Position numbers and translations under genes: made by a program
The notes under the pieces: generated by a model
What the model saw: the letters and a program-made list of their open reading frames with translations, nothing else
Database searches by the model: none
Told to the model about the DNA's origin: nothing
DNA from: a virus
Direction: 5' to 3' (one strand)
DNA length: 64,000 bases
Virus record (IMG/VR): IMGVR_UViG_3300045988_176028
In this document: in pieces, positions 21,407-58,518 of the stretch
How the letters are laid out: the number at the start of each line of letters is the position of its first letter
How positions within the stretch are numbered: the stretch's first letter is position 1

Positions 21407-21424
21407 TCCGAAAGGAAAACTAAA

Positions 21425-21559
21425 TTGACAGGACATAACAAGCCCAGTGAGGGTGACAAGTTCGCTGAGTTCATCAACAGCAATGGCCCGTTGACCGGTG
21501 CGATTATCGCCATCGCGTTCATCGTGTGTCTCGTCATCAGCATCATCTTGAACCTGTGA
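21425..21559 (+). CDS. Possible 44-aa single-TM peptide
   Basis: TTG start with AAAGGA upstream. Frame translated by hand (LTGHNKPSEGDKFAEFINSNGPLTGAIIAIAFIVCLVISIILNL). Below the length cutoff of the ORF track. Confidence 0.3.
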   Translation: MTGHNKPSEGDKFAEFINSNGPLTGAIIAIAFIVCLVISIILNL

Positions 21560-21581
21560 TGAGATTTTTTGGAGGTTTCCT

Positions 21582-22607
21582 ATGGCTAAGAAGAAAGGCG
21601 GAATGTCCGCCGGTTCCCTGCTTGGCGGCATTCTGGTCGTGTTGACGGCCATGGTGCTCATCGTGAATCTTGGATTGTGGACTCCCATGTCGAAGATTTT
21701 CGGATTGCCGGAAATCAACAGTCTATCCCAGTTGATGCCGGGTGAGGATTCCAAGGTGAAGCCGGATGTGAAATTAGGGTTGAAGGAGCCTTCCTTGAAG
21801 TCGTCCGGCTCCAATTCGCAAACCAATACTCCAGAAGCCGCAGAAACGCCCTCAGAAACGACGCAGACACAAAATGGGGACAATTCCTCAAGTCAAGCAC
21901 AAAAAGCCTCCACAAGCGTTCCTGAAGGTGCTTTAAGCCCTATCAGCACGAAACAGGCGCTTGACAAACTCGCTGACATCGAAACCGCAACCCCGCACAC
22001 CAAAGGATACAATCGCAAAACCGACTTCGGCACATGGCAGAACAGCAACCAGCTCTGCGGATACGGCACCACCCGCGACTACATCCTCAAACGCGACATG
22101 ACCGACGTGACCATGGACAAGAACTGCAAGGTGCTCACCGGCACCCTCCAAGACCCATATACAGGCAATGCCATCAAATTCCAGCGCGACACCTACGAGA
22201 CCGTCAACGGCAAACAGAAGAAAACAGGCGGAGACAGCATGGCCGTCCAAATCGACCATGTGGTGGCTGTCAACGACGCTTGGGCCAGCGGACTGTGGAA
22301 GGACTCGCGCAAGGGCGACCGCATCACCTATGCGAACGACCCGGAAGTGCTCGTCGCGTCCGAAGGAGAAGCGAACAACATCAAACAGCAGGGCGTGAAC
22401 CTTGTTAAGGACGAGGCGTTGAACGGTTCCTCGACCAGGTGGAAGGACGCAACGCCCAGCATTTGGCTCCCGTCCAACAAGACGTACCAATGCTCGTATA
22501 TGGCTAAACGCGTGTACATCAAAGACAAGTACAAACTGTCCATGAGCAGTTGGGAAAAAGCCGAAACGAAGTCGTTCCTCACGCAATGCGTGGCCGACGG
22601 GAACTGA
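21582..22607 (+). CDS. Membrane-anchored extracytoplasmic nuclease, DUF1524 / His-Me finger (GmrSD C-terminal-like)
   Basis: GGAGG RBS and an N-terminal TM anchor. GYNRKTDFGTWQ, QIDHVVAVNDAW and EGEANNIKQQG motifs. Confidence 0.6.
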   Translation: MAKKKGGMSAGSLLGGILVVLTAMVLIVNLGLWTPMSKIFGLPEINSLSQLMPGEDSKVKPDVKLGLKEPSLKSSGSNSQTNTPEAAETPSETTQTQNGDNSSSQAQKASTSVPEGALSPISTKQALDKLADIETATPHTKGYNRKTDFGTWQNSNQLCGYGTTRDYILKRDMTDVTMDKNCKVLTGTLQDPYTGNAIKFQRDTYETVNGKQKKTGGDSMAVQIDHVVAVNDAWASGLWKDSRKGDRITYANDPEVLVASEGEANNIKQQGVNLVKDEALNGSSTRWKDATPSIWLPSNKTYQCSYMAKRVYIKDKYKLSMSSWEKAETKSFLTQCVADGN

Positions 22608-22810
22608 TAGCCGGTTTCTCCATGAGACCCGTCGCCTGTAATCTATGGTTATAGAGATTCCATATGAGGGCGGCGGGTCGTCTTTTTGCGCGAGAGATAA
22701 GGGTTCATCTAGAAGAGAAAAACACCCGTTAAACCCCTTGTTGGGAAAATTTTTCCTGTTTTTCCGGTTTTTCACCAGATGAATGTTCGAGGTCGTTTAC
22801 TGTAACAGTT

Positions 22811-22950
22811 GAGACCGGGTTTTCGTGGTATATCTTCCACCATCTGGTTTCTTTCCCGGTCTCTGTGGAACGCTCCTCACGGGGAGTGTGTTTCGGGTTC
22901 CGCCACCCGTGTGTGGATTCTTTTTTTGGGTGGCGGAACCATTTTCTTTT
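22811..22950. other. Cluster of three stem-loops in a 430-bp gene-free gap
   Basis: GAGACCGGG (22811-19) pairs with CCCGGTCTC (22855-63). A small CTCC..GGAG hairpin lies at about 22873-87. A perfect 13-bp stem pairs GGTTCCGCCACCC (22896-908) with GGGTGGCGGAACC (22928-40), followed by a T-rich tail. Confidence 0.7.
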
Positions 22951-22985
22951 CTAATCGACATTGTGGCGATTTGAGAAGAGAATGA

Positions 22986-23007
22986 TGTTATACTAGAAGC
23001 GTTCACA
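22986..23007 (+). promoter_or_regulatory. Conserved promoter/leader box, copy 2 (TGTTATACTAGAAGCGTTCACA)
   Basis: Extended -10. Lies 33 nt upstream of the ATG at 23041. Confidence 0.6.
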
Positions 23008-23040
23008 CAATAACAGAAAAAGCCAGCCAAGGAGAAAAAC

Positions 23041-23412
23041 ATGAGCAACTACTTCAACAGCATCGAACATCAAATCAACCTCATGCTCGACAGGGAACAA
23101 GACCTCCAAGACGAACAGGAACAGCGCCTACGGGATATTCACGACGGCATCGGAGACTACGTGCTGTTGCCCGAAGGCGACCCGTGGAACATCGATGACT
23201 ACGAGCAAGACCCACAGCCCACCAACGTCAACAACACTTGCAGTCACGGACTCTATGTTGACGAAGGTGTGAAATCTGGAACCATGTATCATCTCAACCC
23301 TGACCTCGGACTGTGGGCGGCTTGTGACGACTACGAGGACATAGAAAAAATGGTCAGGGAAGGCAAAACGCTCACCCAGCCCATCGACGATTACGATTCG
23401 AAGCTCGCCTGA
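23041..23412 (+). CDS. Very acidic hypothetical protein (123 aa)
   Basis: AAGGAG RBS. D/E-rich throughout (DREQDLQDEQEQ, DDYEQD, CDDYEDIE). Confidence 0.65.
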   Translation: MSNYFNSIEHQINLMLDREQDLQDEQEQRLRDIHDGIGDYVLLPEGDPWNIDDYEQDPQPTNVNNTCSHGLYVDEGVKSGTMYHLNPDLGLWAACDDYEDIEKMVREGKTLTQPIDDYDSKLA

Positions 23413-23454
23413 GAAAGAATTTTTCCTGCAACCTTCCTTGTTTGCGAAAAACTA

Positions 23455-23476
23455 CGTTATAGTGGAACCAGTCACA
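23455..23476 (+). promoter_or_regulatory. Conserved promoter/leader box, copy 3 (CGTTATAGTGGAACCAGTCACA)
   Basis: TATAGT -10 with TCACA at the conserved distance. Confidence 0.5.
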
Positions 23477-23494
23477 AACAAGGAAGGTTCCTTT

Positions 23495-23827
23495 TTGAAC
23501 ACCGAAACGGACATCACGGACAGTCAAACCCAAGAACGTTCCCGTCCGCGCAAAGACCTTGACACCGTAGGAGGGTTCCTTGACTCCTGCAAGGACGAGA
23601 CGCCAATCCTGCTTTACTTCAACACAAACGACGGAATACAAAGAATCCCCCACATCCTAGGAGACCCGCCCACCGTCGGACAACTCCGACTCAACAAATA
23701 TCTGCGGCCACTGAAAATCCAACGAAGAGTCCGCTACCAGATTGCCGGAACCAGCGACACCGGCTGGGTCATCCGGGTCGATGAACGATTCAAGAAAAAG
23801 AAATACGTCAAAGCGTCGAAAGCCTGA
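23495..23827 (+). CDS. Hypothetical protein (110 aa)
   Basis: In-frame TTG at 23495 after AAGGAAGG. The track start at 23438 lies upstream of the promoter box. Confidence 0.5.
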   Translation: MNTETDITDSQTQERSRPRKDLDTVGGFLDSCKDETPILLYFNTNDGIQRIPHILGDPPTVGQLRLNKYLRPLKIQRRVRYQIAGTSDTGWVIRVDERFKKKKYVKASKA

Positions 23828-23852
23828 ATACTTGGAATATCAGAACAACACC

Positions 23853-24581
23853 GTGAACAAAAACTGCCTATACTCCAACGGAGACCGGGAAGCAGTCTTG
23901 CAGACCATCTTCCGTAGGGGAGTCCTCCCACAGGTCGTGGTGTACGCGCTCGGACTACTGGTGGCGGTATGGCTTCTCGCATATTCGAACTCCCTGACGG
24001 GAGGATGGAAAATCATCTTCCTGTTCCTGTCCATCCTGAACTTCGTGTCCGGAATCCGAGGACTCGTCAAGGTAAGCGCCAGCTGGACAACGCTCCGTGA
24101 CTGCGCGTATCCGAACATCGACGCGAACGCGGCTGAAACATGGGATTTGGCAGTATGGCTCGCCAACAGTCCGCAATTCGGAGGAACCCCAATCCGGGAT
24201 ATGCGACAGCAGGAACTACGTGAGGCATTGGATGAGTACGGGCCACTGTTCCAAGCGAACAATCTCGAAGACGTGACCATCCAACTGAACCGGTTGGAAC
24301 GGCTCATGCACGAAGTGGATTGGACAGGCCAATACGTTCATGCTCTCCTTCTATTCCGACAGTTGAAAGACTCGCATCTCAAATATTGGAGCCAACTGGA
24401 CGGAGCCTACCGTCAAACGTTAATAAAACTGACGTCAGGCATGCGTTTGGAAAACCTACGCGAAGACGTGCAACTCTCCCCACACCGCATGGTCATCTTG
24501 GACGGATTGCAGATTAACTGCGGACTGCACGGTACCGCAGGAAAGTACACCGTCGGCTATGAGGACGGCGGTGTACTGTGA
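23853..24581 (+). CDS. Membrane protein with two TM helices (start uncertain)
   Basis: GTG at 23853 is the first start that does not overlap the previous gene. The track ORF begins at 23742. TM helices are VVVYALGLLVAVWLLAY and IIFLFLSILNFVSGI. Confidence 0.5.
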   Translation: MNKNCLYSNGDREAVLQTIFRRGVLPQVVVYALGLLVAVWLLAYSNSLTGGWKIIFLFLSILNFVSGIRGLVKVSASWTTLRDCAYPNIDANAAETWDLAVWLANSPQFGGTPIRDMRQQELREALDEYGPLFQANNLEDVTIQLNRLERLMHEVDWTGQYVHALLLFRQLKDSHLKYWSQLDGAYRQTLIKLTSGMRLENLREDVQLSPHRMVILDGLQINCGLHGTAGKYTVGYEDGGVL

Positions 24582-24895
24582 ACTATCAGATGCTACGGGA
24601 CGCTCGTAGTGGACGAATCCACATGTTCTCCGACAATTGCTGGATGCTCCGGGACTGGGTGGCGAAAAACATCGGGCTGGAAGAGAACGGCGTAGCACTC
24701 ATACGCAGACTCGACCTGTTGGAAATGGAAAAATACTCCACCAAAATGATGGACAATCCCGAATCGTCCAGCGAGGAATACTGGCAAGCGAAAACCATGC
24801 ATGACGGCGTGGTCAGAACCTTCAAAGAACTATCGCCGGTGGCGCTACTCGAATACTGGGACTGTCTGAACGACACTCCCGTCAACATCCTCTGA
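24578..24895 (+). CDS. Hypothetical protein (105 aa)
   Basis: GTGA overlap with the upstream gene. Confidence 0.5.
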   Translation: MNYQMLRDARSGRIHMFSDNCWMLRDWVAKNIGLEENGVALIRRLDLLEMEKYSTKMMDNPESSSEEYWQAKTMHDGVVRTFKELSPVALLEYWDCLNDTPVNIL

Positions 24896-24932
24896 GCTTA
24901 GAAAAACCCCAAAACCTCTGAAAGGAGCAGCA

Positions 24933-25376
24933 TTGGACGAAGAATCCTCCACCCAACGTTTCCGTGTCCTCATGGCCGGTATCAGCGAAGGTGAGACCAG
25001 AATCCTCTACAACATCGAAAATGGAAGGTTGACCGCCGACATTCTCAAAAGCAACATCGGCAGACGACTGCTGGATGCCGGACTCATCCGACGTAACGGG
25101 CAATCAGCCCCGTCCCTCACCAAGGATGGCATGCGCCTCGTATCCACGCTCGCCCAAGGCGAGGCAGACCGTCCAATCCGACTATACGAGCGCAACAGCG
25201 AAACGCTGCTCCGCCAAGCCGGACAGGGAACGGCCAACGCATACAAGACCGGTTTCGAAAACGCCGCCGTCGAACTGTTGACCGACCGGCTTGTCCGACT
25301 TGACATCGCCTCCGGAACCCTCACCCTGCTTCCTGCGGGAACGGAACTCCTGTCCAAGCTCGACAAGGCGGCTTGA
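24933..25376 (+). CDS. Hypothetical protein, possibly winged-helix DNA-binding
   Basis: AAGGAG RBS and a TTG start. ETRILYNIENGRLTADILKSNIGRRLLDAGLIRRNG...LTKDGMRL resembles a MarR-type wHTH, though the match is weak. Confidence 0.5.
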   Translation: MDEESSTQRFRVLMAGISEGETRILYNIENGRLTADILKSNIGRRLLDAGLIRRNGQSAPSLTKDGMRLVSTLAQGEADRPIRLYERNSETLLRQAGQGTANAYKTGFENAAVELLTDRLVRLDIASGTLTLLPAGTELLSKLDKAA

Positions 25377-25377
25377 C

Positions 25378-25581
25378 ATGCTGGGCTGGCTGACTCAACA
25401 GAACGTGCTTGTGGCGATTGCTATTGGAGCCATCATCCTACTGCTCATGTTCCTCATCCCCGCCGTCGAGGAACTGGTCGGCACGTATACTCCGTTGGGA
25501 GAATTCTGCGAAAGGCCGAACATGAGATGGGCTGTGGTCATCCTGACCATCGTAGCGGTTCTCACGGTAGTGGTCATCTGA
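25378..25581 (+). CDS. Small two-TM membrane protein (67 aa)
   Basis: ATG at 25378 directly follows the previous stop. Two hydrophobic helices. Confidence 0.5.
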   Translation: MLGWLTQQNVLVAIAIGAIILLLMFLIPAVEELVGTYTPLGEFCERPNMRWAVVILTIVAVLTVVVI

Positions 25582-25595
25582 CTTTTTCCCTTGAC

Positions 25596-25624
25596 GGGGA
25601 CGGCTTGATGCCGTCCCTTTTTTG
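25596..25624 (+). terminator. Rho-independent terminator
   Basis: GGGGACGGC-TTGAT-GCCGTCCC followed by TTTTTT. Confidence 0.85.
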
Positions 25625-25634
25625 TTTCCCGCAT

Positions 25635-25657
25635 CAAGTATGGGACAGTGTTCCAGC
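25635..25657 (+). promoter_or_regulatory. Degenerate variant of the conserved box (CAAGTATGGGACAGTGTTCCAGC)
   Basis: AAGTAT -10-like hexamer, then GGGA..GTGTTCCA. Lies just after a terminator and before the gene at 25697. Confidence 0.3.
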
Positions 25658-25696
25658 CGACTAATCTAGGAAAGGAAAGACTCGAAAGGTGGAAAC

Positions 25697-25981
25697 GTGA
25701 AAGGCTTCCTAAAGAACCTATTGGCTTTGACCGGGCTGGCGTCCATCATCACCATGCTCGGCTCCCTCGCATATGTGGATAAGAAACTACATGATGTGGG
25801 CAACGAATACAAGTACGGCCCCGCACGGCATCTGGAGTATTTGAGCGCGCTGTTGCACTCCTTCAACCGTTCTATAGATGTTATTGCCGCCGACACGCAT
25901 CGGAAGGTGTGCGATGAGGAGAATCGGAAGTATGACCGTTTGGAGGATGAGCGGGAGAGGGCTTGGAGCGCGGCCCGCTGA
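25697..25981 (+). CDS. Hypothetical protein with an N-terminal TM or signal segment (94 aa)
   Basis: GTG start with GAAAGGTGG upstream. Confidence 0.5.
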   Translation: MKGFLKNLLALTGLASIITMLGSLAYVDKKLHDVGNEYKYGPARHLEYLSALLHSFNRSIDVIAADTHRKVCDEENRKYDRLEDERERAWSAAR

Positions 25982-26008
25982 GTATTTGGTTTTCTTTGCG
26001 TCTGTCTA

Positions 26009-26030
26009 TGTTATAGTGGAACTGTTCACA
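26009..26030 (+). promoter_or_regulatory. Conserved promoter/leader box, copy 4 (TGTTATAGTGGAACTGTTCACA)
   Basis: Extended -10. Lies 23 nt upstream of the ATG at 26054. Confidence 0.6.
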
Positions 26031-26053
26031 TAAAACAGATTCGAAGGAAGACT

Positions 26054-26311
26054 ATGAACCAAAAAGTCCTCATCACTCTCAACAACGGAGCGAAACGTAT
26101 CGTATACCGTGACGACCTCTGCCACGAGCTGGCCGACCTGCTCCGGCTCTACCTGCACGCCGACGCGTTGCCGGGAACAGGGGAACGTTGGGAACTGTTG
26201 AGGACGCTTGCATCCACTCTCATTGGTCGCGCTATCGAAAAAGGGCTTTTTGAGGACTGCGCCCGCGTGAACGTGTATCCGGTTTCTTTCCAAATGGTTC
26301 GGCCTGATTGA
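26054..26311 (+). CDS. Hypothetical protein (85 aa)
   Basis: GAAGGAAG RBS. Confidence 0.55.
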   Translation: MNQKVLITLNNGAKRIVYRDDLCHELADLLRLYLHADALPGTGERWELLRTLASTLIGRAIEKGLFEDCARVNVYPVSFQMVRPD

Positions 26312-26349
26312 CATATTCAACAAACTGAGTTACAGTGGAACTGTTCACA
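26308..26349 (+). promoter_or_regulatory. Conserved promoter/leader box, copy 5, with a perfect -35 (TTGACA-N17-TACAGTGGAACTGTTCACA)
   Basis: TTGACA at 26308-13, a 17-bp spacer and TACAGT at 26331-36. Confidence 0.7.
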
Positions 26350-26375
26350 CATATAGACCCAAAGGAGAAAACCAA

Positions 26376-26639
26376 ATGACCGTCAACGAACTCATCGAAC
26401 AATTAAAGAACCTACCCAAGGAAGTACGCGAACGCCCCATCATGGACGGCAATCCGAACAATGAATACTGGTTGGCCGACCTCCGCGCGATTTCAGTCGC
26501 CAAGGTCGTTGTATCCGGCGATGGCGCTTGTAACATGTACGACCCGGTACTTTCCGACGAGGAAAACATCGAAGAACTGGAAGACAGATACGACATGTCA
26601 ATGCATGTCGAACATCGGGCATTGGCATTCTTCAATTGA
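26376..26639 (+). CDS. Hypothetical protein (87 aa)
   Basis: AAAGGAG RBS. Confidence 0.55.
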   Translation: MTVNELIEQLKNLPKEVRERPIMDGNPNNEYWLADLRAISVAKVVVSGDGACNMYDPVLSDEENIEELEDRYDMSMHVEHRALAFFN

Positions 26640-26655
26640 GATAGGGGTCGTACAA

Positions 26656-27105
26656 ATGGACGCGAACACTCCCATTAACATTCCCATCCGTCTTGAACAG
26701 TGGATACATGACAACTACATGGAAGTCGAAACCATTATCATCGATGCCCGGACAATCCTAGACGCAACCGATTTCGATAATCTTCCCGAATGGGAGGATT
26801 GGGATACGGACTTCATCGCGGAGGACGCTCAAAGAATTGGGCTGCTGAAAATGTGGTCTGGGCCATTCACCGTCGAACTATTCAACTGTGACGAGTATCC
26901 CGACTATCTCGAATGGCGCAAAACTCATAAGACCGTCGAAGGTGCCGCAGAACACATTCTCGACTTGAGCAAGAAGGAACTACTGTGGCAAATCGAAGAA
27001 ACCAAGAAGCAACTAGACAAGTATGTTAGCCAATATGAGGCGTTAAGCGGGGAGAATCCGCGTCAAACTTCTAGAACGGCACTGGTTGGCAGACCACTCG
27101 TCTAA
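26656..27105 (+). CDS. Acidic hypothetical protein (149 aa)
   Basis: ATG at 26656. The track ORF start at 26461 overlaps the previous gene. Contains DATDFDNLPEWEDWDTDFIAEDAQ. Confidence 0.55.
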   Translation: MDANTPINIPIRLEQWIHDNYMEVETIIIDARTILDATDFDNLPEWEDWDTDFIAEDAQRIGLLKMWSGPFTVELFNCDEYPDYLEWRKTHKTVEGAAEHILDLSKKELLWQIEETKKQLDKYVSQYEALSGENPRQTSRTALVGRPLV

Positions 27106-27131
27106 CATCCGAGAGAAAAGAAGAAAACCAA

Positions 27132-27500
27132 ATGGTATGCAAAAATACCCCGGACAACTGGGCTACCCGCCGAGTCCTCGCAATCTCATACAGTCCGGAC
27201 GGCAGATATAAGGAAACACTATTCGAGCGTGAAGAAGATGGAAACTATTATGCGGGCTGTGGAAGATTCTACGCCAGCGATATCGAGGATAGAACCAAGT
27301 TCTATCCGATTCCGGACGACGAGAAACTATCTCGCTGGGTGTTGAAGGATGGAACGGTAATCACTTCGTCCGAGAATAGTGACATCCTTAACCCGGAGGC
27401 CATGCGTGTTATGACTTTCGACGGCACTCGTATCGTAATCCCAGCCGAACAGCTTAACTACGTGCAGGACATGTGTGAGGATACCAATGCAGAATACTGA
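27132..27500 (+). CDS. Hypothetical protein (122 aa)
   Basis: Open frame in the operon string. Confidence 0.5.
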   Translation: MVCKNTPDNWATRRVLAISYSPDGRYKETLFEREEDGNYYAGCGRFYASDIEDRTKFYPIPDDEKLSRWVLKDGTVITSSENSDILNPEAMRVMTFDGTRIVIPAEQLNYVQDMCEDTNAEY

Positions 27501-27846
27501 ACAAAACCGTTGGATATTACTGGATATGGCTCGTGCCATGGGTGGCTACGGCTACGACGAGATGTGGTGGGCTGACGTTTTTGAGCCGGACGAATTGGAG
27601 TATTCCGCTCCCGACTTGTATGAGAAGTTCGTCAACTCGTCCGACTACGACCCTGCTGCTCATTGGTTCCGTCGTAAGGAATACGGTGTCGGTTTCGAGT
27701 CGGTCACGGACGAGAGCCTGTTGGCGGATGCTTGGCATATGCGGGATGATATTGTCGAATTGGCTTCTCGTAGGGATGTGTGGCTGAATATTCCGGATAT
27801 CGATTTTGTTTCGCGTATTCGGAAGCTTGGGGTTGTGGTTTCTTAG
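27487..27846 (+). CDS. Acidic, aromatic-rich hypothetical protein (119 aa)
   Basis: ATG at 27487 with GAGGA 7 nt upstream. Overlaps the previous stop. Confidence 0.5.
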   Translation: MQNTEQNRWILLDMARAMGGYGYDEMWWADVFEPDELEYSAPDLYEKFVNSSDYDPAAHWFRRKEYGVGFESVTDESLLADAWHMRDDIVELASRRDVWLNIPDIDFVSRIRKLGVVVS

Positions 27847-27848
27847 GA

Positions 27849-27890
27849 TTGTCTCTCTGAAAATTCCATGCTATACTGGAAACGTTCACA
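27849..27890 (+). promoter_or_regulatory. Conserved promoter/leader box, copy 6 (TTGTCT-N17-TATACTGGAAACGTTCACA)
   Basis: The -35-like TTGTCT lies at 27849-54. The box TGCTATACTGGAAACGTTCACA lies at 27869-90. Confidence 0.65.
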
Positions 27891-27917
27891 AAAAAGTTTT
27901 CGGAAAGAGCAAGAAAA

Positions 27918-28004
27918 ATGAGCGACATCAAGACGCCTGTCACCCCAATAGACGAGGAACGGGTCAAAAAAACTGGTACCCTCGCTACTCGCATTCAGAC
28001 ATGA
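27918..28004 (+). CDS. Possible 28-aa peptide
   Basis: First ATG after box copy 6 (MSDIKTPVTPIDEERVKKTGTLATRIQT). Its stop overlaps the next ATG (ATGA). Translated by hand. Confidence 0.25.
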   Translation: MSDIKTPVTPIDEERVKKTGTLATRIQT

Positions 28005-28117
28005 ACGACAATATTCGCCTCCGCTTGAACAAGGCGATTGAAACCACCGATTCTGAGGAATTCGTGGACATTGCCTACAAGCTGGGACTGTTCCTTACGG
28101 AAGGGGAAGACGATTGA
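28001..28117 (+). CDS. Possible 38-aa peptide
   Basis: MNDNIRLRLNKAIETTDSEEFVDIAYKLGLFLTEGEDD. Its stop overlaps the TTG start of the next gene. Confidence 0.3.
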   Translation: MNDNIRLRLNKAIETTDSEEFVDIAYKLGLFLTEGEDD

Positions 28118-28662
28118 GCGTCGAAGAAACAGGAGTTTGGACGGAAACTTATCCAAAAGAACCTTGCCCATTCTGCGGAAAAACGGTTGCTATTCGAATC
28201 AGCGAGATTCTTATTGTGGACAAAAAATACTGGAAAGTCCGTATTTTCGACGATAGTGGTTGCCCGTTGTCCGCAATGTTCGAGCGGGGCTTGCGAATGG
28301 GGTCAGCGGGGGAAGTGTGTGCCGTTCTTAAAAAGGATTGGCATGAGATTGTGGAAACCGTTTCCACTATGCCGGTTTGTCCCGAATGTGGACGCTCCCC
28401 GGTTTGTCGTTATTCCACGAACCTCGACCGTTGGATTATCCTTTGCGAAAAAGGACATTTGAGAACGGATGAGGCTTTCGTTCTCTCTGCCATGAGGAAT
28501 TGGAACAAGAAAGTCGGTCAATATGTTTGCGACAATCAGAACCAACGACTCGGTCAATGTCTGATGGAGTTCTGGCATCAAGGGGATACGTCGGACGAGA
28601 ATCTTCCGGAATTCATGCGGCAAAGTTGGCGGATAAAACACGCCGATTGGGAGAGAAAGTGA
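28114..28662 (+). CDS. Protein with two Lar-like (restriction-alleviation family) zinc-ribbon modules
   Basis: Module 1 is CPFCGKTVAIRISE...AVLKKDWHE. Module 2 is CPECGRSPVCRY...LCEKGH...AMRNWNKKV. Both follow the CPFCG ... C ... A..WN pattern remembered for Lar-family proteins. Confidence 0.55.
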   Translation: MSVEETGVWTETYPKEPCPFCGKTVAIRISEILIVDKKYWKVRIFDDSGCPLSAMFERGLRMGSAGEVCAVLKKDWHEIVETVSTMPVCPECGRSPVCRYSTNLDRWIILCEKGHLRTDEAFVLSAMRNWNKKVGQYVCDNQNQRLGQCLMEFWHQGDTSDENLPEFMRQSWRIKHADWERK

Positions 28663-29018
28663 ACGAAAACGTAAATTACCATCCGCTACGCCGTTGCGTC
28701 ATCTGCAACGAATCAGTGGAGGCCGACGACCCGACATGCGCGGTCTGCGGCCAACCGGCTTGCAGTAACCACGCTTACGACGTGGGTGGCGGCGAATGGT
28801 ATTGCGCCGACTGCCACCACGGAAAAACTCACCCGTGCGCGGACTGTGGTACGCCATCCCATTGGCGGTGCAAGGATTGCGGCAAATGGGTTTGCAAAAA
28901 CCATTCGACATTCGTCGCGGTTCAAGGTGAGGAATTCTATACTCTTTTCGGCTACTACTGCGATAATGATTTACGTTGGGAACTAGCGGAAGAACAAGCT
29001 AAGGAGGTGACGTTGTGA
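28659..29018 (+). CDS. Cysteine-rich zinc-binding protein (119 aa)
   Basis: GTGA overlap with the upstream gene. Five CxxC pairs (CVIC, CAVC, CADC, CADC, CKDC) plus CSNH and CKNH. Confidence 0.55.
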   Translation: MNENVNYHPLRRCVICNESVEADDPTCAVCGQPACSNHAYDVGGGEWYCADCHHGKTHPCADCGTPSHWRCKDCGKWVCKNHSTFVAVQGEEFYTLFGYYCDNDLRWELAEEQAKEVTL

Positions 29019-29123
29019 GCGAGAAAACCAGACGGGATAAGACGTTGAAGCTTATCGAGGACGGCGATGACGATGATTGGAAGACTGCCGTATTTATACT
29101 TCCTTCTACTCGCTTGAGTTTTG

Positions 29124-29156
29124 GCCGCTCCTTTTCTGGGAGCGGCTTTTATTTTT
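29124..29156 (+). terminator. Rho-independent terminator
   Basis: GCCGCTCC-TTTTCT-GGGAGCGGC followed by TTTTATTTTT. Confidence 0.8.
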
Positions 29157-29166
29157 CTCATCCAGA

Positions 29167-29188
29167 TGTTATAGTGGAATTGTTCACA
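29167..29188 (+). promoter_or_regulatory. Conserved promoter/leader box, copy 7 (TGTTATAGTGGAATTGTTCACA)
   Basis: Extended -10. Lies 22 nt upstream of the ATG at 29211. Confidence 0.6.
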
Positions 29189-29210
29189 AAAAATGGTTAA
29201 GGAGAAAAAT

Positions 29211-29939
29211 ATGAGCGACAAAAACACCACACCAAAACTTCCCAAGTACAAGAAGACCATCGACGCTACCGGATTCGGACTATCCTGCGTCACCGAATAC
29301 GGGTTCGATGACGCAGGGCTGTTCCACCACTCATACACGTACAACTACAAGAACAGGAAGGCCGTCATCCAAGTGATGGGAAGCCAGCAGCCCGCCGACT
29401 GGCATACCCGCCAAAGCGCCTACGCCTCCTACTATGAGGATGGGAAACAGGTAGGCCGAACCCGTGCCTATAACATTCTTGAAAACGCTCAAATCAAGGC
29501 AGTCCGTTGGATTATGGGCTTCGGCTCGGATAGCAAGGCGGAAGAAGCCTATCGTGCCGTTCGACTGGAGAAAAGCCATCGCAATCAGCAAATCTGCCGT
29601 CGCATCCCCAAACCATTGCGCATGGAAGTCGAGGGGCTTGCAAATAAGCTGGGTTTGAAAATCCACGGCGACGAAGACAACAGCATTGTGGAAACGTTCG
29701 TGAACACGTATCTCGCCACTGCGGAACAGAATGGTCTGATTGAACTGAGAGAACGTCAATACGGTTACGAAAAGTCGATGACCGTATGGCTGGACGGGGA
29801 TGCGAGCCGCAAAACCGAAGACGCCCCCGACTGGGAGAAGTTCAAGGAAACCGTCGTGGAAATCGTCCCACTCTATTTGGAATGTAGACGGAAAACGGCG
29901 GAAAGCGTTGGTCTGGGGGAGAAGCTGGCTGAAAACTAA
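29211..29939 (+). CDS. Hypothetical protein (242 aa)
   Basis: ATG at 29211 with AAGGAG 6 nt upstream. The track start at 29193 lies over the RBS. Confidence 0.6.
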   Translation: MSDKNTTPKLPKYKKTIDATGFGLSCVTEYGFDDAGLFHHSYTYNYKNRKAVIQVMGSQQPADWHTRQSAYASYYEDGKQVGRTRAYNILENAQIKAVRWIMGFGSDSKAEEAYRAVRLEKSHRNQQICRRIPKPLRMEVEGLANKLGLKIHGDEDNSIVETFVNTYLATAEQNGLIELRERQYGYEKSMTVWLDGDASRKTEDAPDWEKFKETVVEIVPLYLECRRKTAESVGLGEKLAEN

Positions 29940-30429
29940 TCCTGATGGTTGGGACAGAAAACTGCTCCAACCATTTTTGTTGCGTTCTCCAATATCTGCC
30001 TATAATCCTCAAGGACACCTACTGTCACGTTTAAGTCCACGGCCATTGGGAAAAGCTCACCCTCATAGATTCGTTCGGATTGGATATATTCGAACGGATT
30101 GATAAGCAGTATCGCCGTCTCCTTACGAACGTATGATTCAGCCTTGTCATCGTATTGTTTCCAGCAACAAGTATCACCGTGAGTCCAATGGAATAGTTCA
30201 TGCGTTAACGTGCATCGTTTCTGCCGCTCGTTCAACCGTGGGTCTATGACGATGATGCGGGTTTCCTCGTCATATACGCCGTATATACGCCGTTGATGTT
30301 TTCCGGAAGTTCCTCCTCGAAAACGTATGGCGCTTGACGTGTGAGTCCTACCATCCGTTTTATCTCTTCATAGCACATTCGCCGGTCGATGGCGACGCTT
30401 CTGTTGTCTACTGGGGGATGTTTCAGCAA
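29936..30429 (-). pseudogene. ImmA/IrrE-type zinc metalloprotease gene split by an 11-bp tandem duplication
   Basis: Two minus-strand ORFs (30429..30244 and 30235..29936). The downstream one carries HELFH (HEXXH). ATATACGCCGT occurs twice in tandem at 30272-30293. Deleting one copy by hand gives a continuous ...INGVYDEETRIIVIDPRLNERQKRCTLTHELFHW... Confidence 0.75.
30272..30293. repeat. Perfect 11-bp tandem duplication (ATATACGCCGT x2)
   Basis: Read directly from the sequence. It causes the frameshift in the ImmA-like gene. Confidence 0.95.
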
Positions 30430-30803
30430 GCGTCCTCGCTTTCCGATTCCGCTTGCTTGTTGGGGTCGTGGTTTGCGGCCAATGTGAGGTCGCCGGAATT
30501 GATTTTACGCAGGACGGCTTGAAGCTGCTGTTCCACAACGGATTGCGTGGAATGGTATCCGTTGTGTCCGGCGATGAGTTCTTCTGGGGTCATGTTCCAT
30601 GCGTGGGCGAGTTTTTCCACGTCGGCGGGGAGCCATTCGACCGTTTCGTTGTATCGTGTGGTGACGTAGCTGGGGCTTTTGCCTAGTTGACGTGCGATGT
30701 CCCGTGCGGAGAGCCGTCGGATTCCGGCTTCCGCTAGGATGCGTTGGTTGATTCTTCTGTTGAATTCGCTGGTTTGGTTTTTTCTTTTTCCCATGTTTTC
30801 CAT
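30423..30803 (-). CDS. XRE-family helix-turn-helix repressor (ImmR-like by context)
   Basis: HTH segment LSARDIARQLGKSPSYVTTRYN. Its stop overlaps the start of the ImmA-like gene by 7 nt. Confidence 0.75.
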   Translation of the reverse strand: MENMGKRKNQTSEFNRRINQRILAEAGIRRLSARDIARQLGKSPSYVTTRYNETVEWLPADVEKLAHAWNMTPEELIAGHNGYHSTQSVVEQQLQAVLRKINSGDLTLAANHDPNKQAESESEDAC

Positions 30804-31001: not shown

Positions 31002-31071
31002 CAAAATTGGAGGGACACACCCCCAATTTTGTGAATACGCCCAGTATGACTAGAATAAAAAAACGTCCACA
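31002..31071 (+). promoter_or_regulatory. Inverted repeat CAAAATTGGAGGG/CCCCCAATTTTG overlapping the -35, then TAGAAT -10 and GTCCACACAATA leader
   Basis: Inverted repeat at 31002-14 and 31020-31. TAGAAT at 31051-56. GTCCACACAATA at 31065-76 resembles the leader of box copy 2 (GTTCACACAATA) but sits 2 nt further from the -10. Confidence 0.45.
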
Positions 31072-57884: not shown

Positions 57885-57926
57885 TGTCAAATCACGCCAA
57901 TATCTGCTATACTGGGATAGTTCACA
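57885..57926 (+). promoter_or_regulatory. Conserved promoter/leader box, copy 10, upstream of ssb (TGTCAA-N17-TATACTGGGATAGTTCACA)
   Basis: The -35-like TGTCAA lies at 57885-90. The box TGCTATACTGGGATAGTTCACA lies at 57905-26. Confidence 0.65.
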
Positions 57927-57948
57927 AATTCAATGGAAGGTTTAACAC

Positions 57949-58518
57949 ATGCCAACCCCAAGCACAACCCTCGAAGGCCGACTCACCGACGACCCGCAAC
58001 GCAACCAGCGCAACCCCAATCTGGTTGAATTCTCCATTGCGGAAGGCACTCGCTATCAGGATAAGAAGACCGGCGAGTGGAAAGACGGGCAGACGCTTTT
58101 CGCACGATGCAAAGTGTGGGATACCACGCTCGGCAACAACATCATGAACACACTCCGTAAAGGCATGGACGTGGTGGCGTTGGCCGACGTGAAGCAGAAC
58201 AGTTGGACTGACCAGCAGACCGGACAGAAGCGTTCGATGGTGGAATTCACAGTCACCAACATCGGTGTCGGACTCCGTCACGCGACCGCGCAGGTCATGC
58301 CGAATCCGAAACGCAACGGCGGATACGACGGCGGCAACCGTACCAACACCCAGCAGAACAATGGTCAGATGTTCCAAAATCCGAACAATCCGCCAGTGTT
58401 CCAAAATCCGAACAATTATGGTGCCGACAATTTCCAGCCAGCCGCATCCGACGACCCGTGGGGTGCTCCGATGGGCAATCCGGCACCGGTGTCGCAGAAC
58501 GACGAGCCGGAATTCTAG
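57949..58518 (+). CDS. ssb: Single-stranded DNA-binding protein
   Basis: OB-fold pattern (RLTDDPQ...FARCKVWDT...WTDQQTGQKRSMVEFTV), a G/N/Q/P-rich linker and an acidic tip (NDEPEF). Confidence 0.9.
   Translation: MPTPSTTLEGRLTDDPQRNQRNPNLVEFSIAEGTRYQDKKTGEWKDGQTLFARCKVWDTTLGNNIMNTLRKGMDVVALADVKQNSWTDQQTGQKRSMVEFTVTNIGVGLRHATAQVMPNPKRNGGYDGGNRTNTQQNNGQMFQNPNNPPVFQNPNNYGADNFQPAASDDPWGAPMGNPAPVSQNDEPEF

What the first reader, a model, noticed from the sequence alone, without database searches (positions are those of the whole stretch)
23041..29939. Seven kb of small orphan genes in cassettes: candidate establishment or anti-defence island
About 19 co-directional ORFs of 28-242 aa occupy this stretch, and almost none has a recognisable domain. 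They are organised as short operons, each behind a copy of the conserved box and separated by strong terminators (25596, 29124). Contents include:
- very acidic proteins (23041, 26656, 27487), of the kind seen in DNA-mimic anti-restriction proteins;
- a tandem Lar-like protein;
- a Cys-rich zinc protein;
- several tiny membrane proteins.

It is established that leading regions of conjugative plasmids carry ssb and are enriched in anti-restriction and other anti-defence genes in uniform orientation. Here ssb shares the same promoter box. That these orphans are anti-defence or establishment factors is inference only.
Basis: inference. Interest (0 to 1): 0.75.

Follow-up and report, generated by a model that had tools for sequence, protein, structure and literature searches.

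The report
Swappable orphan-gene island on Bifidobacterium megaplasmid
A 7-kb run of 18 small genes of unknown function is the variable cargo slot of a very common, apparently undescribed Bifidobacterium adolescentis megaplasmid; it probably helps the plasmid settle in new hosts by blocking restriction, but no gene could be assigned that role.

Summary
Window 23041-29939 carries 18 co-directional small ORFs. Sixteen are under purifying selection. None has a significant Pfam, PADLOC or PDB match. They lie behind six copies of one promoter box and are closed by two strong terminators. Six are far more acidic than any other gene checked in the window.

The window belongs to a ~220-kb B. adolescentis megaplasmid, a distant relative of B. 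breve pMP7017. The box is the orthologue of the 34-bp motif already published for pMP7017, which also precedes ssb there.

In 55 related loci the island sits at one fixed backbone position: DUF1524 nuclease gene, g1/g2 pair, variable island, ImmA/HTH, Rep. Its content changes cassette by cassette, sometimes exactly at boxes or terminators.

The recurrent recognisable cargo in sister islands is solitary DNA methyltransferases, plus DUF2786, WhiB and Lar-like zinc ribbons. Sister islands also hold IS elements, an ABC pair and one Type III R-M system.

An anti-restriction or establishment role is therefore the best guess (about 0.45), and it rests on association only. No oriT or relaxase could be located, so "leading region" is untested. 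"Lar-like" stays below threshold. A confident g18 model matches no known fold.

The parts
22608..23040 (+). Structured 433-nt intergenic region ahead of the island. It contains a unique hairpin at 22896-22908 / 22928-22940 with a 19-nt loop.
   Evidence: The ssDNA fold has z = -5.2. The stem is 13 bp and perfect. The hairpin is present once per locus at this position in every related locus that covers it; the loop core TGTGGAYTYTTT is conserved and the stems covary.
22981..23015 (+). Promoter box copy 1 (core 22989-23007), driving g1.
   Evidence: It is orthologous to the pMP7017 34-bp motif (PMC10832533).
23041..23412 (+). g1: 123 aa, pI 4.07, net charge -20. It is the only island gene found in every lineage.
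   Evidence: pN/pS 0.07. The conserved core is GIGD..LLPE..NTCSHG..MTYH..W..C.
23450..23484 (+). Promoter box copy 2 (core 23458-23476), driving the g2-g6 operon.
23495..23827 (+). g2: 110 aa, basic (pI 9.8). Conserved together with g1 in pMP7017-type plasmids.
   Evidence: pN/pS 0.17.
23781..24581 (+). g3: 266 aa membrane protein, shared with pMP7017 itself.
   Evidence: Hydropathy 2.31; family F6; pN/pS 0.22.
24578..24895 (+). g4: 105 aa (or 90 aa from the ATG at 24623).
   Evidence: pN/pS 0.17.
24933..25376 (+). g5: 147 aa. The g5/g6 junction (25348-25396) is where relatives carry a solitary N6_N4 DNA methyltransferase.
   Evidence: pN/pS 0.37.
25378..25581 (+). g6: 67 aa membrane protein.
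   Evidence: Hydropathy 3.05.
25596..25618 (+). Intrinsic terminator 1. It is also a recurrent recombination junction (25609-25635).
25697..25981 (+). g7: 94 aa with an N-terminal hydrophobic segment, behind only a degenerate box at about 25631-25648.
   Evidence: pN/pS 0.32.
26012..26030 (+). Promoter box copy 3, driving g8.
26054..26311 (+). g8: 85 aa single-gene cassette. It is deleted exactly box-to-box in L006 and replaced by a 120-aa gene in at least L002, L015, L016, L017 and L023.
26331..26349 (+). Promoter box copy 4, driving the g9-g12 operon.
26376..27846 (+). g9 (26376-26639, 87 aa), g10 (26656-27105, 149 aa), g11 (27132-27500, 122 aa) and g12 (27487-27846, 119 aa). All four are acidic (pI 4.4-4.45).
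   Evidence: pN/pS 0.14-0.43.
27872..27890 (+). Promoter box copy 5, driving the g13-g17 operon.
27918..28117 (+). g13 (27918-28004, 28 aa, unverified) and g14 (28001-28117, 38 aa, acidic). There is a recurrent recombination junction at about 27950-27980.
28114..28662 (+). g15: 182 aa with two zinc-ribbon modules carrying Lar-like motifs (CPFCG...W.V..C; CPECG...WIILC...AMRNWNKK).
   Evidence: PHROG 599 E = 3.5e-4. Pfam Lar E = 0.72. The remote homologue P0052 gives Lar at 21.8 bits, below the 28.6-bit cut-off. Alignment.
28659..29018 (+). g16: 119 aa with 13 Cys.
   Evidence: pN/pS 0.34.
29015..29200 (+). g17: 61-aa ORF with a strong Shine-Dalgarno sequence, but it runs through the terminator and the next box. 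Doubtful.
29123..29147 (+). Intrinsic terminator 2.
29170..29188 (+). Promoter box copy 6, driving g18.
29211..29939 (+). g18: 242 aa, present in every complete window-type island. The model shows an N-terminal beta sheet followed by a helical bundle.
   Evidence: pN/pS 0.13. AlphaFold2 pLDDT 84, pTM 0.77. No Foldseek match in PDB or BFVD.
29936..30803 (-). Right-hand backbone anchor: ImmA-like metalloprotease (29936-30235) and HTH repressor (30423-30803), convergent with the island.
   Evidence: PHROG 87 E = 5e-10 and PHROG 4 E = 3e-5. Conserved in position.
21582..22607 (+). Left-hand backbone anchor: DUF1524 / GmrSD_C-type HNH nuclease gene.
   Evidence: PF07510 E = 1e-6. 54% identical to the pMP7017 orthologue. 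Used as the anchor for the related loci.
57908..58518 (+). A distant member of the same box regulon: the box at 57908-57926 and ssb at 57949-58518.

Best explanation
The stretch is the variable cargo island of a ~220-kb Bifidobacterium adolescentis megaplasmid of the pMP7017 superfamily. It occupies one fixed backbone slot, between a DUF1524 nuclease gene with a structured intergenic region and a convergent ImmA/HTH pair followed by a Rep gene.

Its 16-18 small genes are arranged as compact expression cassettes. Each has the plasmid family's own promoter box (an extended -10, TGnTATAnT, plus the conserved GGnAnnGTTCACAnAAA around the start site), an 18-34 nt leader, a Shine-Dalgarno sequence and an ORF. 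Cassettes are gained, lost and swapped between near-identical plasmids by recombination, partly at the boxes and terminators.

My best guess for function is that most of these proteins act on the host when the plasmid arrives in a new cell. They would work mainly against restriction-modification, which the literature describes as a major barrier to DNA entry in bifidobacteria (own knowledge, not checked here). They would be expressed together with ssb from the box regulon.

Shown: the anatomy, the box, the terminators, that the genes are real, their restriction to this plasmid lineage, the hotspot behaviour, the acidic enrichment, and methyltransferases in sister islands.

Inferred: the anti-restriction or establishment function, early expression, and any role of an individual ORF.
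For: - Host and element: contigs of 214-231 kb in human gut metagenomes. Exact proteins are recorded as B. adolescentis. RepA is 37%, DUF1524 54% and g1/g2 about 40% identical to pMP7017-family plasmids.
- Box: 12 copies against 0.25 expected. By my reading, about 22 of 27 consensus positions match the published pMP7017 motif. That motif overlaps mapped -10 elements, occurs at 19 sites and includes an N6_N4 methyltransferase plus SSB (PMC10832533).
- Real genes: pN/pS 0.07-0.43.
- Fixed slot with variable content across 55 loci and 106 ORF families; only g1, g2 and g3 are shared between lineages.
- Cassette events at boxes or terminators: a box-to-box deletion of g8 in L006, replacement of g8 between 26033 and 26308 in at least five loci, and junctions at 25609-25635.
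- Sister-island cargo: Dam, EcoRI-type and N6_N4 solitary methyltransferases, DUF2786/DUF7168, WhiB and DUF3310. The N6_N4 enzyme sits alone between g5 and g6 in L015, L017, L019 and L022.
- Acidic enrichment.
- g15 has weak Lar-like signals.
- Solitary methyltransferases and SSB genes are enriched in plasmid leading regions, all in one orientation (PMC11541004).
Against: - None of the 18 proteins hits a known anti-defence family.
- The g18 model is confident but matches nothing. The g1 model is unusable at pLDDT 45.
- In g1 the conserved part is a Cys/His core. The acidic N-terminal helix is missing in the 96-aa pMP-type homologues.
- No oriT or relaxase was found.
- The box regulon is plasmid-wide. 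In pMP7017 it was first found upstream of six genes highly transcribed in established log-phase cells, so it is not specific to entry.
- Sister islands also carry a complete Type III-like R-M system, an ABC/AAA_21 pair and IS200/605 elements. Three island proteins are membrane proteins.
Confidence: 0.45

Rival explanations
1. The island is a general cargo hotspot with no unifying function. It is a permissive insertion site where any small gene carrying a box promoter can persist. The orphans would do unrelated things, such as exclusion, membrane functions, regulation or host interaction.
For: Sister islands hold a Type III-like mod-res pair (L037), an ABC/AAA_21 pair (L023), IS200/605 elements, WhiB and a tandem paralogue array. 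g3, g6 and g7 are membrane proteins. There are 106 ORF families in 55 loci with little overlap between lineages.
Against: The recurrent recognisable cargo is solitary DNA methyltransferases (12 of 22 and 3 of 14 complete islands). Acidic small proteins are strongly enriched. Purifying selection is fairly strong on most genes, and the same g1/g2 head is kept in all lineages.
Confidence: 0.33
2. The island encodes regulatory or maintenance accessories of the neighbouring replication and ImmA/HTH module, for example anti-repressors, copy-number control or transfer-control proteins. This would resemble the early operons of ICEs and temperate phages.
For: The island abuts an ImmA-like protease, an HTH repressor and a Rep initiator in every lineage. 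A box copy on the minus strand at 31048 points towards the HTH/ImmA genes. WhiB-type regulators occur in sister islands.
Against: The island is convergent with ImmA/HTH, not divergently coupled to them; the divergent partner of the HTH gene is Rep. Regulators are normally conserved, whereas this content is swapped between 97-100% identical plasmids. No DNA-binding domain was detected in the 18 proteins.
Confidence: 0.12
3. It is a plasmid-borne defence island that protects the host against phages or competing plasmids.
For: One relative carries a Type III-like R-M system in the slot. The pMP7017 box regulon includes CRISPR-Cas genes.
Against: There are no PADLOC hits for the ten largest island proteins. 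The proteins are 28-266 aa with no enzymatic domain.
Confidence: 0.05
4. The ORFs are chance open frames in non-coding DNA.
For: The ORFs are very short and have no database annotation. g13 and g17 have no supporting variation data, and g17 crosses a terminator.
Against: Sixteen ORFs have pN/pS of 0.07-0.43 with no stop-containing alleles. Strong Shine-Dalgarno sequences lie at the right spacing. Independent gene calls agree. g18 folds confidently.
Confidence: 0.02

Closest known systems
The syntenic island and 34-bp promoter motif regulon of B. breve megaplasmid pMP7017 (Dineen et al. 2024, PMC10832533)
   Same: Same backbone order: AAA ATPase, large hypothetical protein, ParA, DUF1524, g2/g1 homologues, small-gene island, ImmA, HTH, Rep. 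Same promoter motif overlapping the -10 element. Same link to ssb.
   Different: Backbone proteins are only 37-54% identical. Of the 18 island genes, only g1, g2 and g3 have homologues there. pMP7017 carries Dam- and EcoRI-type methyltransferases and DUF2786 in the slot; this window carries none. The host is B. adolescentis, not B. breve or B. longum.
Leading-region anti-defence islands of conjugative plasmids (Samuel et al. 2024, PMC11541004)
   Same: Uniformly oriented clusters of small, mostly uncharacterised genes. Solitary methyltransferases and SSB genes belong to the same gene set. The island shows high turnover.
   Different: oriT and the relaxase are unknown, so the position relative to entry is untested. 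No known anti-defence gene is present. The promoters are an ordinary double-strand extended -10 box in 60-80 nt spacers, not long Frpo hairpins. ssb lies 28 kb away.
Lar restriction-alleviation protein of the Rac prophage (Pfam PF14354, PHROG 599)
   Same: g15 has two zinc-ribbon modules with the CPxCG ... W.V.C ... A..WN pattern. There is a weak PHROG 599 hit and a sub-threshold Pfam hit in a remote homologue.
   Different: g15 scores 10.6 bits against the 28.6-bit Pfam cut-off. It has a tandem architecture of 182 aa. The family has 11 members in 1.84 billion representatives. Function has not been tested.
DNA-mimic anti-restriction proteins ArdA and Ocr
   Same: g1, g9, g10, g12 and g14 carry -0.10 to -0.16 net charge per residue. 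From memory, ArdA is about -0.17 and Ocr about -0.24.
   Different: There is no sequence similarity. No usable structure was obtained for g1. The acidic N-terminus of g1 is not conserved in pMP-type homologues.
Early or 'moron' gene regions of temperate phages and ICEs next to ImmR/ImmA switches
   Same: Mosaic small orphan genes, each with its own promoter and terminator, lie next to an ImmA/HTH pair. Exchange happens at conserved regulatory sequences.
   Different: The island is convergent with ImmA/HTH. No island protein has a phage homologue.

Membership tests
pMP7017-type promoter-box regulon (Dineen et al. 2024) | A conserved motif of about 34 bp that overlaps the -10 element (ATGYTATACTGAATATGTCCACATAAAA). 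| tested here: met
   The window consensus is ATGYTATASTGGAAnnGTTCACAAAAA. By my reading about 22 of 27 positions are shared. There are 12 copies against 0.25 expected.
pMP7017-type promoter-box regulon (Dineen et al. 2024) | The motif lies within 60 bp upstream of translation starts, at many sites across the plasmid, including ssb. | tested here: met
   The box ends 18-34 nt before the start codons listed. Sites run from 222 to 57908. ssb sits behind the box at 57908.
pMP7017-type promoter-box regulon (Dineen et al. 2024) | Promoter activity, that is, mapped transcription starts. | not testable with these tools
   Activity is inferred only from homology to the RNA-seq-mapped pMP7017 promoters.
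Leading-region anti-defence island (Samuel et al. 2024) | Located within the first genes to enter the recipient, next to oriT. | not testable with these tools
   No relaxase, T4CP or oriT was recognised in the window or within 10 kb either side. pMP7017 is typed non-mobilizable by MOB-suite although it is conjugative.
Leading-region anti-defence island (Samuel et al. 2024) | Contains known anti-defence genes, solitary methyltransferases, SSB or toxin-antitoxin genes. | tested here: inconclusive
   None of the 18 genes in this window qualifies. Solitary methyltransferases occur in 15 of 36 complete sister islands. ssb shares the regulon but lies 28 kb away.
Leading-region anti-defence island (Samuel et al. 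2024) | All genes lie on one strand (the T-strand orientation). | tested here: met
   All 18 ORFs are on the plus strand. However, almost the whole block of at least 64 kb that starts after the box at 222 is also on the plus strand, so this feature does not discriminate.
Leading-region anti-defence island (Samuel et al. 2024) | Frpo/ssi-type single-strand promoters: long hairpins that rebuild the -35 and -10 elements. | tested here: inconclusive
   The spacers inside the island are only 45-115 nt and carry a double-strand-type extended -10 box. Only the 433-nt region ahead of g1 is strongly structured as ssDNA (z = -5.2), with the box core paired to 22868-22877. No comparison with known Frpo sequences was possible.
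Lar restriction-alleviation family (PF14354) | A score above the Pfam gathering threshold. | tested here: not met
   g15 scores 10.6 bits (E = 0.72) against a 28.6-bit cut-off. Its homologue P0052 scores 21.8 bits. PHROG 599 gives E = 3.5e-4.
Lar restriction-alleviation family (PF14354) | Alleviation of type I restriction in vivo. | not testable with these tools
   This needs an experiment.
ArdA/Ocr DNA mimics | Sequence or fold homology to ArdA or Ocr. | tested here: not met
   No Pfam or PHROG hit for g1, g9, g10, g12 or g14. The g1 model has pLDDT 45, so no fold test was possible.
ArdA/Ocr DNA mimics | A very high density of surface negative charge. | tested here: met
   Net charge per residue is -0.10 to -0.16, against -0.066 or higher for 33 other window genes. 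This is composition only; the surface pattern is unknown.
ImmR/ImmA-controlled divergent operon (ICEBs1 type) | The operon is transcribed divergently from the repressor gene and shares its control region. | tested here: not met
   The island ends convergently against the ImmA gene: g18's stop at 29939 overlaps the ImmA end at 29936. Rep (31116) is the divergent partner of the HTH gene.
Integron-type cassette array | An integrase plus 3' attC recombination sites, with promoterless cassettes. | tested here: not met
   No integrase is present. The repeated element is a 5' promoter. Events look like homologous recombination between 19-21 nt identical box cores.

The most novel reading that the evidence does not exclude
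The island is the counter-defence arsenal carried on the first-entering DNA of a conjugation system whose relaxase and oriT are still unrecognised. On this reading, the conserved hairpin at 22896-22940 (conserved loop, covarying stem, strongly structured ssDNA context) marks the transfer origin or a single-strand initiation or promoter element. The box promoters fire on entry. Several of the 16 verified orphan proteins (the acidic g1, g9, g10 and g12; the zinc proteins g15 and g16; and g18 with no known fold) would be new anti-restriction or anti-defence families specific to bifidobacteria.
Probability: 0.15. Interest if true: 0.8.

Novelty: new member of a known kind. Interest (0 to 1): 0.5.

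Why it matters
B. adolescentis is a dominant adult gut bifidobacterium. This plasmid is very common: the exact g1 protein was seen on at least 1000 contigs. No paper in the library searched describes it.

Bifidobacteria are hard to engineer, and restriction-modification is described as a major reason (own knowledge, not checked here). If some of these cassettes are anti-restriction proteins, they would be new protein families and practical tools for getting DNA into bifidobacteria. They would also extend the "anti-defence island" idea to Actinomycetota plasmids that use a different promoter logic.

If the genes are not anti-defence, the island is still a clean natural example of promoter-bearing cassettes shuffled at their own regulatory sequences.

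Tried and rejected
- Megablast of the island against PLSDB and phages found nothing.
- tblastn of all 18 proteins joined together found only g1 and g2 in six Bifidobacterium megaplasmids and nothing in phages.
- Pfam, PHROGs and PADLOC on the island proteins gave nothing significant apart from the weak PHROG 599 hit.
- PDB sequence searches for g18, g15 and g5 gave nothing meaningful.
- Two scans of genome contigs with the DUF1524 anchor returned nothing, so the host was identified through source names instead.
- AlphaFold2 on g1 with a 7-sequence alignment failed (pLDDT 44.7). I did not search with that model.
- The g18 model is good, but Foldseek against PDB and BFVD gave no hit below E = 0.01.
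- g18 is not related to the pMP7017 DUF2786 protein that occupies the same position.
- g1 and g2 are not detectable paralogues.
- Profile comparison of the g15 family with the pMP-type multi-zinc-ribbon family F7 was inconclusive (probability 13%).
- Two of the g15 "homologues" from the exhaustive search, P0054 and P0057, are fibronectin and ankyrin repeat proteins, which I judged spurious.
- Rfam found no RNA family in the window, and there are no tRNA genes.
- NCBIfam on ten large unannotated window proteins found no relaxase or T4SS names.
- The 2015 pMP7017 discovery paper could not be read.
- I rejected the integron, defence-island and spurious-ORF readings (see the rivals and the membership test).

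Full report
**1. What is in the sequence**

Between 23041 and 29939 I find 18 plus-strand ORFs:

| Gene | Coordinates | Length (aa) | Gene | Coordinates | Length (aa) |
|---|---|---|---|---|---|
| g1 | 23041-23412 | 123 | g10 | 26656-27105 | 149 |
| g2 | 23495-23827 | 110 | g11 | 27132-27500 | 122 |
| g3 | 23781-24581 | 266 | g12 | 27487-27846 | 119 |
| g4 | 24578-24895 | 105 | g13 | 27918-28004 | 28 |
| g5 | 24933-25376 | 147 | g14 | 28001-28117 | 38 |
| g6 | 25378-25581 | 67 | g15 | 28114-28662 | 182 |
| g7 | 25697-25981 | 94 | g16 | 28659-29018 | 119 |
| g8 | 26054-26311 | 85 | g17 | 29015-29200 | 61 |
| g9 | 26376-26639 | 87 | g18 | 29211-29939 | 242 |

Gene calls on identical metagenome contigs agree and show no minus-strand gene in the stretch.

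I compared the window with 22 near-identical relatives. Sixteen ORFs have pN/pS between 0.07 and 0.43, and no allele has an internal stop. These are real genes under purifying selection. g13 and g17 have no variation data. g17 also runs through a terminator and the next promoter box, so it is doubtful.

**2. The box and the terminators**

The pattern TATASTGGNANNNKTCACA occurs 12 times in the window against 0.25 expected. Six copies lie at or inside the island: 22989, 23458, 26012, 26331, 27872 and 29170.

- All six are on the plus strand. For the copies followed by a called gene, the box ends 18-34 nt before the start codon.
- The motif reads as an extended -10 element (TGnTATAnT) followed by a conserved GGnAnnGTTCACAnAAA, with no conserved -35 element.
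- g7 has only a degenerate copy.
- Intrinsic terminators lie at 25596-25618 and 29123-29147.
- The same box precedes ssb (57908, then 57949-58518; PF00436).

The transcription units are therefore:

- box 22989: g1
- box 23458: g2-g6, closed by terminator 1
- degenerate box: g7
- box 26012: g8
- box 26331: g9-g12
- box 27872: g13-g17, closed by terminator 2
- box 29170: g18, which ends convergently against the ImmA gene

**3. Orphan status and composition**

- No island protein has a significant Pfam hit or PADLOC hit.
- g5, g15 and g18 have no meaningful PDB sequence match.
- No island protein has a phage homologue.
- Among 72,556 plasmids, only g1 and g2 have homologues. These are at about 40% identity in six Bifidobacterium megaplasmids.
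- g15 has 11 hits at E <= 1e-3 among 1.84 billion representative proteins. Two of these are spurious repeat proteins.
- g1 has 12 clusters and g18 has 25, all unnamed; the long contigs that carry them are of plasmid size, up to about 237 kb.

The acidic character is a real enrichment. Thirty-three genes elsewhere in the window have a median pI of 6.4. Only one of them is below pI 4.5, and none is below -0.066 net charge per residue. In the island, g1 (-0.163), g14 (-0.158), g9 (-0.115), g10 and g12 (-0.101) and g11 (-0.074) all exceed that.

g16 has 13 Cys in 119 residues, and g15 has 10 Cys in two zinc ribbons. g3, g6 and g7 have clear hydrophobic segments.

**4. What element this is**

- The exact g1 protein is encoded on contigs of 214-231 kb from many human gut metagenomes.
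- The exact g1, g18, DUF1524 and SSB proteins are recorded in NCBI as B. adolescentis proteins. g1 was seen on at least 1000 contigs.
- RepA_C (18525-19394, minus strand) is 35-38% identical to RepA of B. longum and B. breve megaplasmids, including pMP7017.
- The pMP7017 region around its g1/g2 homologues is syntenic: AAA ATPase, a large hypothetical protein, ParA, DUF1524, g2-like and g1-like genes, about 8 kb of small hypothetical genes, ImmA, HTH and a further gene.
- I found no paper in the held library that describes a B. adolescentis megaplasmid.

**5. The box is already known in the sister plasmid**

Dineen et al. 2024 (PMC10832533) describe a 34-bp motif, AWAYATGYTATACTGAATATGTCCACATAAAAWA. 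It overlaps the -10 element of RNA-seq-mapped promoters at 19 sites in pMP7017, and the authors assign 56 genes to it.

- That gene set includes a solitary N6_N4 methyltransferase (p0197), SSB (p0198) and three genes whose locus-tag numbers (p0032, p0044, p0046) suggest they lie in the syntenic island; I did not map the tags to coordinates.
- They propose that the motif is a transcription-factor site and report that it is absent from bifidobacterial chromosomes.
- The window consensus, ATGYTATASTGGAAnnGTTCACAAAAA, shares about 22 of 27 positions with it by my reading.
- The motif was first seen upstream of six highly transcribed genes in established log-phase cells, while p0197 was transcribed at a low level. 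The motif is therefore not an entry-only signal.

**6. Comparative anatomy**

I used a DUF1524 alignment as the anchor and retrieved 56 metagenomic loci. Together with the ten loci and pMP7017, 54 related loci and the window itself had enough sequence for island analysis.

All of these loci that extend far enough keep the order DUF1524, g1/g2, variable island (about 5.3-9.8 kb from the end of DUF1524), an optional zinc-ribbon gene, then ImmA and HTH on the minus strand.

A crude ORF catalogue gave 906 ORFs in 106 families. Only g1, g2 and g3 are shared between the window-type and pMP-type lineages.

Pfam scans of 78 family representatives, followed up, recognised:

- Dam-type methyltransferase, in 12 of 22 complete pMP-type islands
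- EcoRI-type methyltransferase, in pMP7017 only
- a solitary N6_N4 methyltransferase of 318 aa that sits alone between g5 and g6 in window-type relatives L015, L017, L019 and L022 (3 of 14 complete islands)
- DUF2786/DUF7168, WhiB and DUF3310
- IS200/605 genes and an ABC/AAA_21 pair
- in L037, a Type III-like mod-res pair

Most of the remaining families gave no match.

**7. Cassette dynamics**

Plasmids that are 97-100% identical elsewhere differ by whole cassettes.

- L006 lacks g8 through a deletion whose ends are the two identical box cores, 26012-26030 and 26331-26349.
- At least five loci replace g8 between 26033 and 26308.
- The methyltransferase inserts at 25348-25396.
- Other junctions cluster at terminator 1 (25609-25635), at 27950-27980 and at 28780-29111.
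- Boxes and terminators are therefore used as exchange points, but not exclusively.

**8. Tests of the specific functional labels**

Lar. g15 shows the pattern CPxCG ... W.V.C ... A..WN twice.

- PHROG 599 ("Lar-like restriction alleviation") hits residues 76-178 at E = 3.5e-4.
- Pfam PF14354 gives only 10.6 bits against a 28.6-bit cut-off.
- The remote homologue P0052 gives 21.8 bits.
- A profile comparison with the pMP-type multi-zinc-ribbon family F7 was inconclusive.
- Membership is therefore not established.

DNA mimicry. Only the charge criterion is met. In g1 the conserved part is a Cys/His core, and the acidic N-terminal helix is absent from the 96-aa pMP-type homologues. AlphaFold2 failed on g1 (pLDDT 45).

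g18. The model is confident (pLDDT 84, pTM 0.77). Foldseek finds nothing in PDB (best E = 0.02, TM below 0.21). In BFVD the best E is 0.014, and the only matches are partial ones to uncharacterised phage proteins. g18 is also unrelated to the DUF2786 protein that holds the same position in pMP7017.

**9. Is it a leading region?**

This could not be tested.

- No relaxase, coupling protein or oriT was recognised in the window or within 10 kb on either side.
- MOB-suite types pMP7017 as non-mobilizable, although the plasmid has been shown to conjugate.
- The one-strand orientation is shared by almost the whole plus-strand block of at least 64 kb that begins just after the box at 222. Orientation therefore does not discriminate.
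- The island's internal spacers are too short for Frpo-type hairpins.
- The 433-nt region ahead of g1 is strongly structured as single-stranded DNA (z = -5.2).

That region holds a hairpin (22896-22940) that is unique in the window.

- It is present once, at this position, in every related locus that covers it. The loop core TGTGGAYTYTTT is conserved.
- The stems covary. The window type has GGTTCCGCCACCC and the pMP type has GGTGCGGCT.... By my reading of the sequences, three base pairs differ with compensating changes.
- It is followed by a T-rich tract. Other large-loop hairpins in the window follow long genes. A terminator is therefore the simplest reading.
- The constrained loop remains unexplained and would also fit an oriT, sso or protein-binding site.

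**10. Verdict**

Its interpretation is a reasonable hypothesis with circumstantial support:

- methyltransferases at the same position in sister islands
- a regulon shared with ssb
- hotspot behaviour
- acidic enrichment
- weak Lar-like signals

It has no direct support, and there are real counter-indications:

- no known anti-defence family is present
- the regulon is plasmid-wide and active in established cells
- the slot holds mixed cargo, including an R-M system
- the island is adjacent to Rep, and oriT is unknown

I put the anti-restriction or establishment reading at about 0.45. A function-agnostic cargo hotspot stands at about 0.33.

The architecture and the box are known in kind from pMP7017 and from work on leading-region islands. 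What is new is this plasmid lineage and its set of lineage-restricted proteins.

Noticed in passing
whole window; loci L001-L010: The window comes from a megaplasmid of Bifidobacterium adolescentis (long assembled contigs 214-231 kb). It is very prevalent in human gut metagenomes: the exact g1 protein was seen on at least 1000 contigs. It is only 35-54% identical in backbone proteins to pMP7017. No paper in the held library describes it.
   Followed up: partly
window 22896-22940 (within intergenic 22608-23040): A unique hairpin with a 13-bp perfect stem and a 19-nt loop. Across window-type and pMP7017-type plasmids the loop core TGTGGAYTYTTT is conserved while the stems covary. The loop contains the reverse complement of the box core GTYCACA. 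The surrounding 433 nt fold strongly as ssDNA (z = -5.2). It could be a terminator, an oriT/sso or a protein-binding site.
   Followed up: partly
L037:16374-20623: In one pMP-type relative the same island slot holds a Type III-like R-M pair: a 523-aa DPPY N6_N4 methyltransferase and an 891-aa ResIII/DEAD protein. So the slot also accepts defence systems.
   Followed up: partly
L015:13801-14757 (also L017, L019, L022; remnant in L002): A solitary 318-aa N6_N4 DNA methyltransferase (PF01555, E = 1e-49) is inserted exactly between the g5 and g6 orthologues, at window position 25348-25396. There is no room for a restriction enzyme gene beside it.
   Followed up: yes
L006 versus window 26012-26349: The g8 cassette is missing through a 299-bp deletion whose ends are the two identical box cores. 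This shows that the promoter boxes also serve as recombination substrates.
   Followed up: yes
pMP-type loci, e.g. L011:13283-16572, L035, L058: Islands of pMP7017-type plasmids contain a tandem array of 1-8 copies of one paralogous family (F1). Its longest member (L031:12838-14574) carries a DUF3310 domain.
   Followed up: no
pMP-type loci, e.g. L034:16159-16863: A 234-aa multi-zinc-ribbon protein (CPLC..., CPNCG...WWRVGCPYC...REAAEKF) is present in 21 of 22 complete pMP-type islands. It resembles g15 in motif pattern. Profile comparison was inconclusive (probability 13%).
   Followed up: partly
window 35837-39436: Another box-driven operon: box 35837, four unannotated genes of 175, 157, 207 and 295 aa, then an ADP-ribosylglycohydrolase (38552-39436; PF03747, E = 4e-56). 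An enzyme of this family could plausibly reverse ADP-ribosylation by defence toxins (speculation, not checked).
   Followed up: no
window 31030-31048 (minus strand): A box copy with two mismatches points towards the HTH/ImmA genes, about 227 nt upstream of the HTH start codon. The neighbouring repressor module may therefore belong to, or control, the box regulon.
   Followed up: no
window 25631-25648: A degenerate box (TATGGGACAGTGTTCCAG) sits between terminator 1 and g7. It is the only island unit without a canonical box.
   Followed up: partly
window 29015-29200: ORF g17 has a perfect Shine-Dalgarno sequence (AAGGAGG, 7 nt from the start). It reads through terminator 29123-29147 and box 29170 before reaching a stop. 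Relatives have deletions or replacements at 28780-29111.
   Followed up: partly
window ~88-287; L070:6509-6708: A strand switch lies immediately before the box at 222. Upstream genes, including a DnaB-like helicase, are on the minus strand. Almost all genes for at least 64 kb downstream are on the plus strand.
   Followed up: no
window 20126-22607: Just upstream of the island lie two notable genes. One is a 426-aa protein with a long Ser/Asp-rich acidic tail. The other is a DUF1524/GmrSD_C HNH-type nuclease whose N-terminus looks hydrophobic by eye (not computed), so it may be a secreted or surface nuclease. The nuclease is conserved at 54% identity in pMP7017.
   Followed up: no
L047 (contig OKVT01000001.1, 549 kb): A pMP7017-type island lies on a 549-kb contig, far larger than the plasmid. 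This could be chromosomal integration, a cointegrate or a mis-assembly.
   Followed up: no
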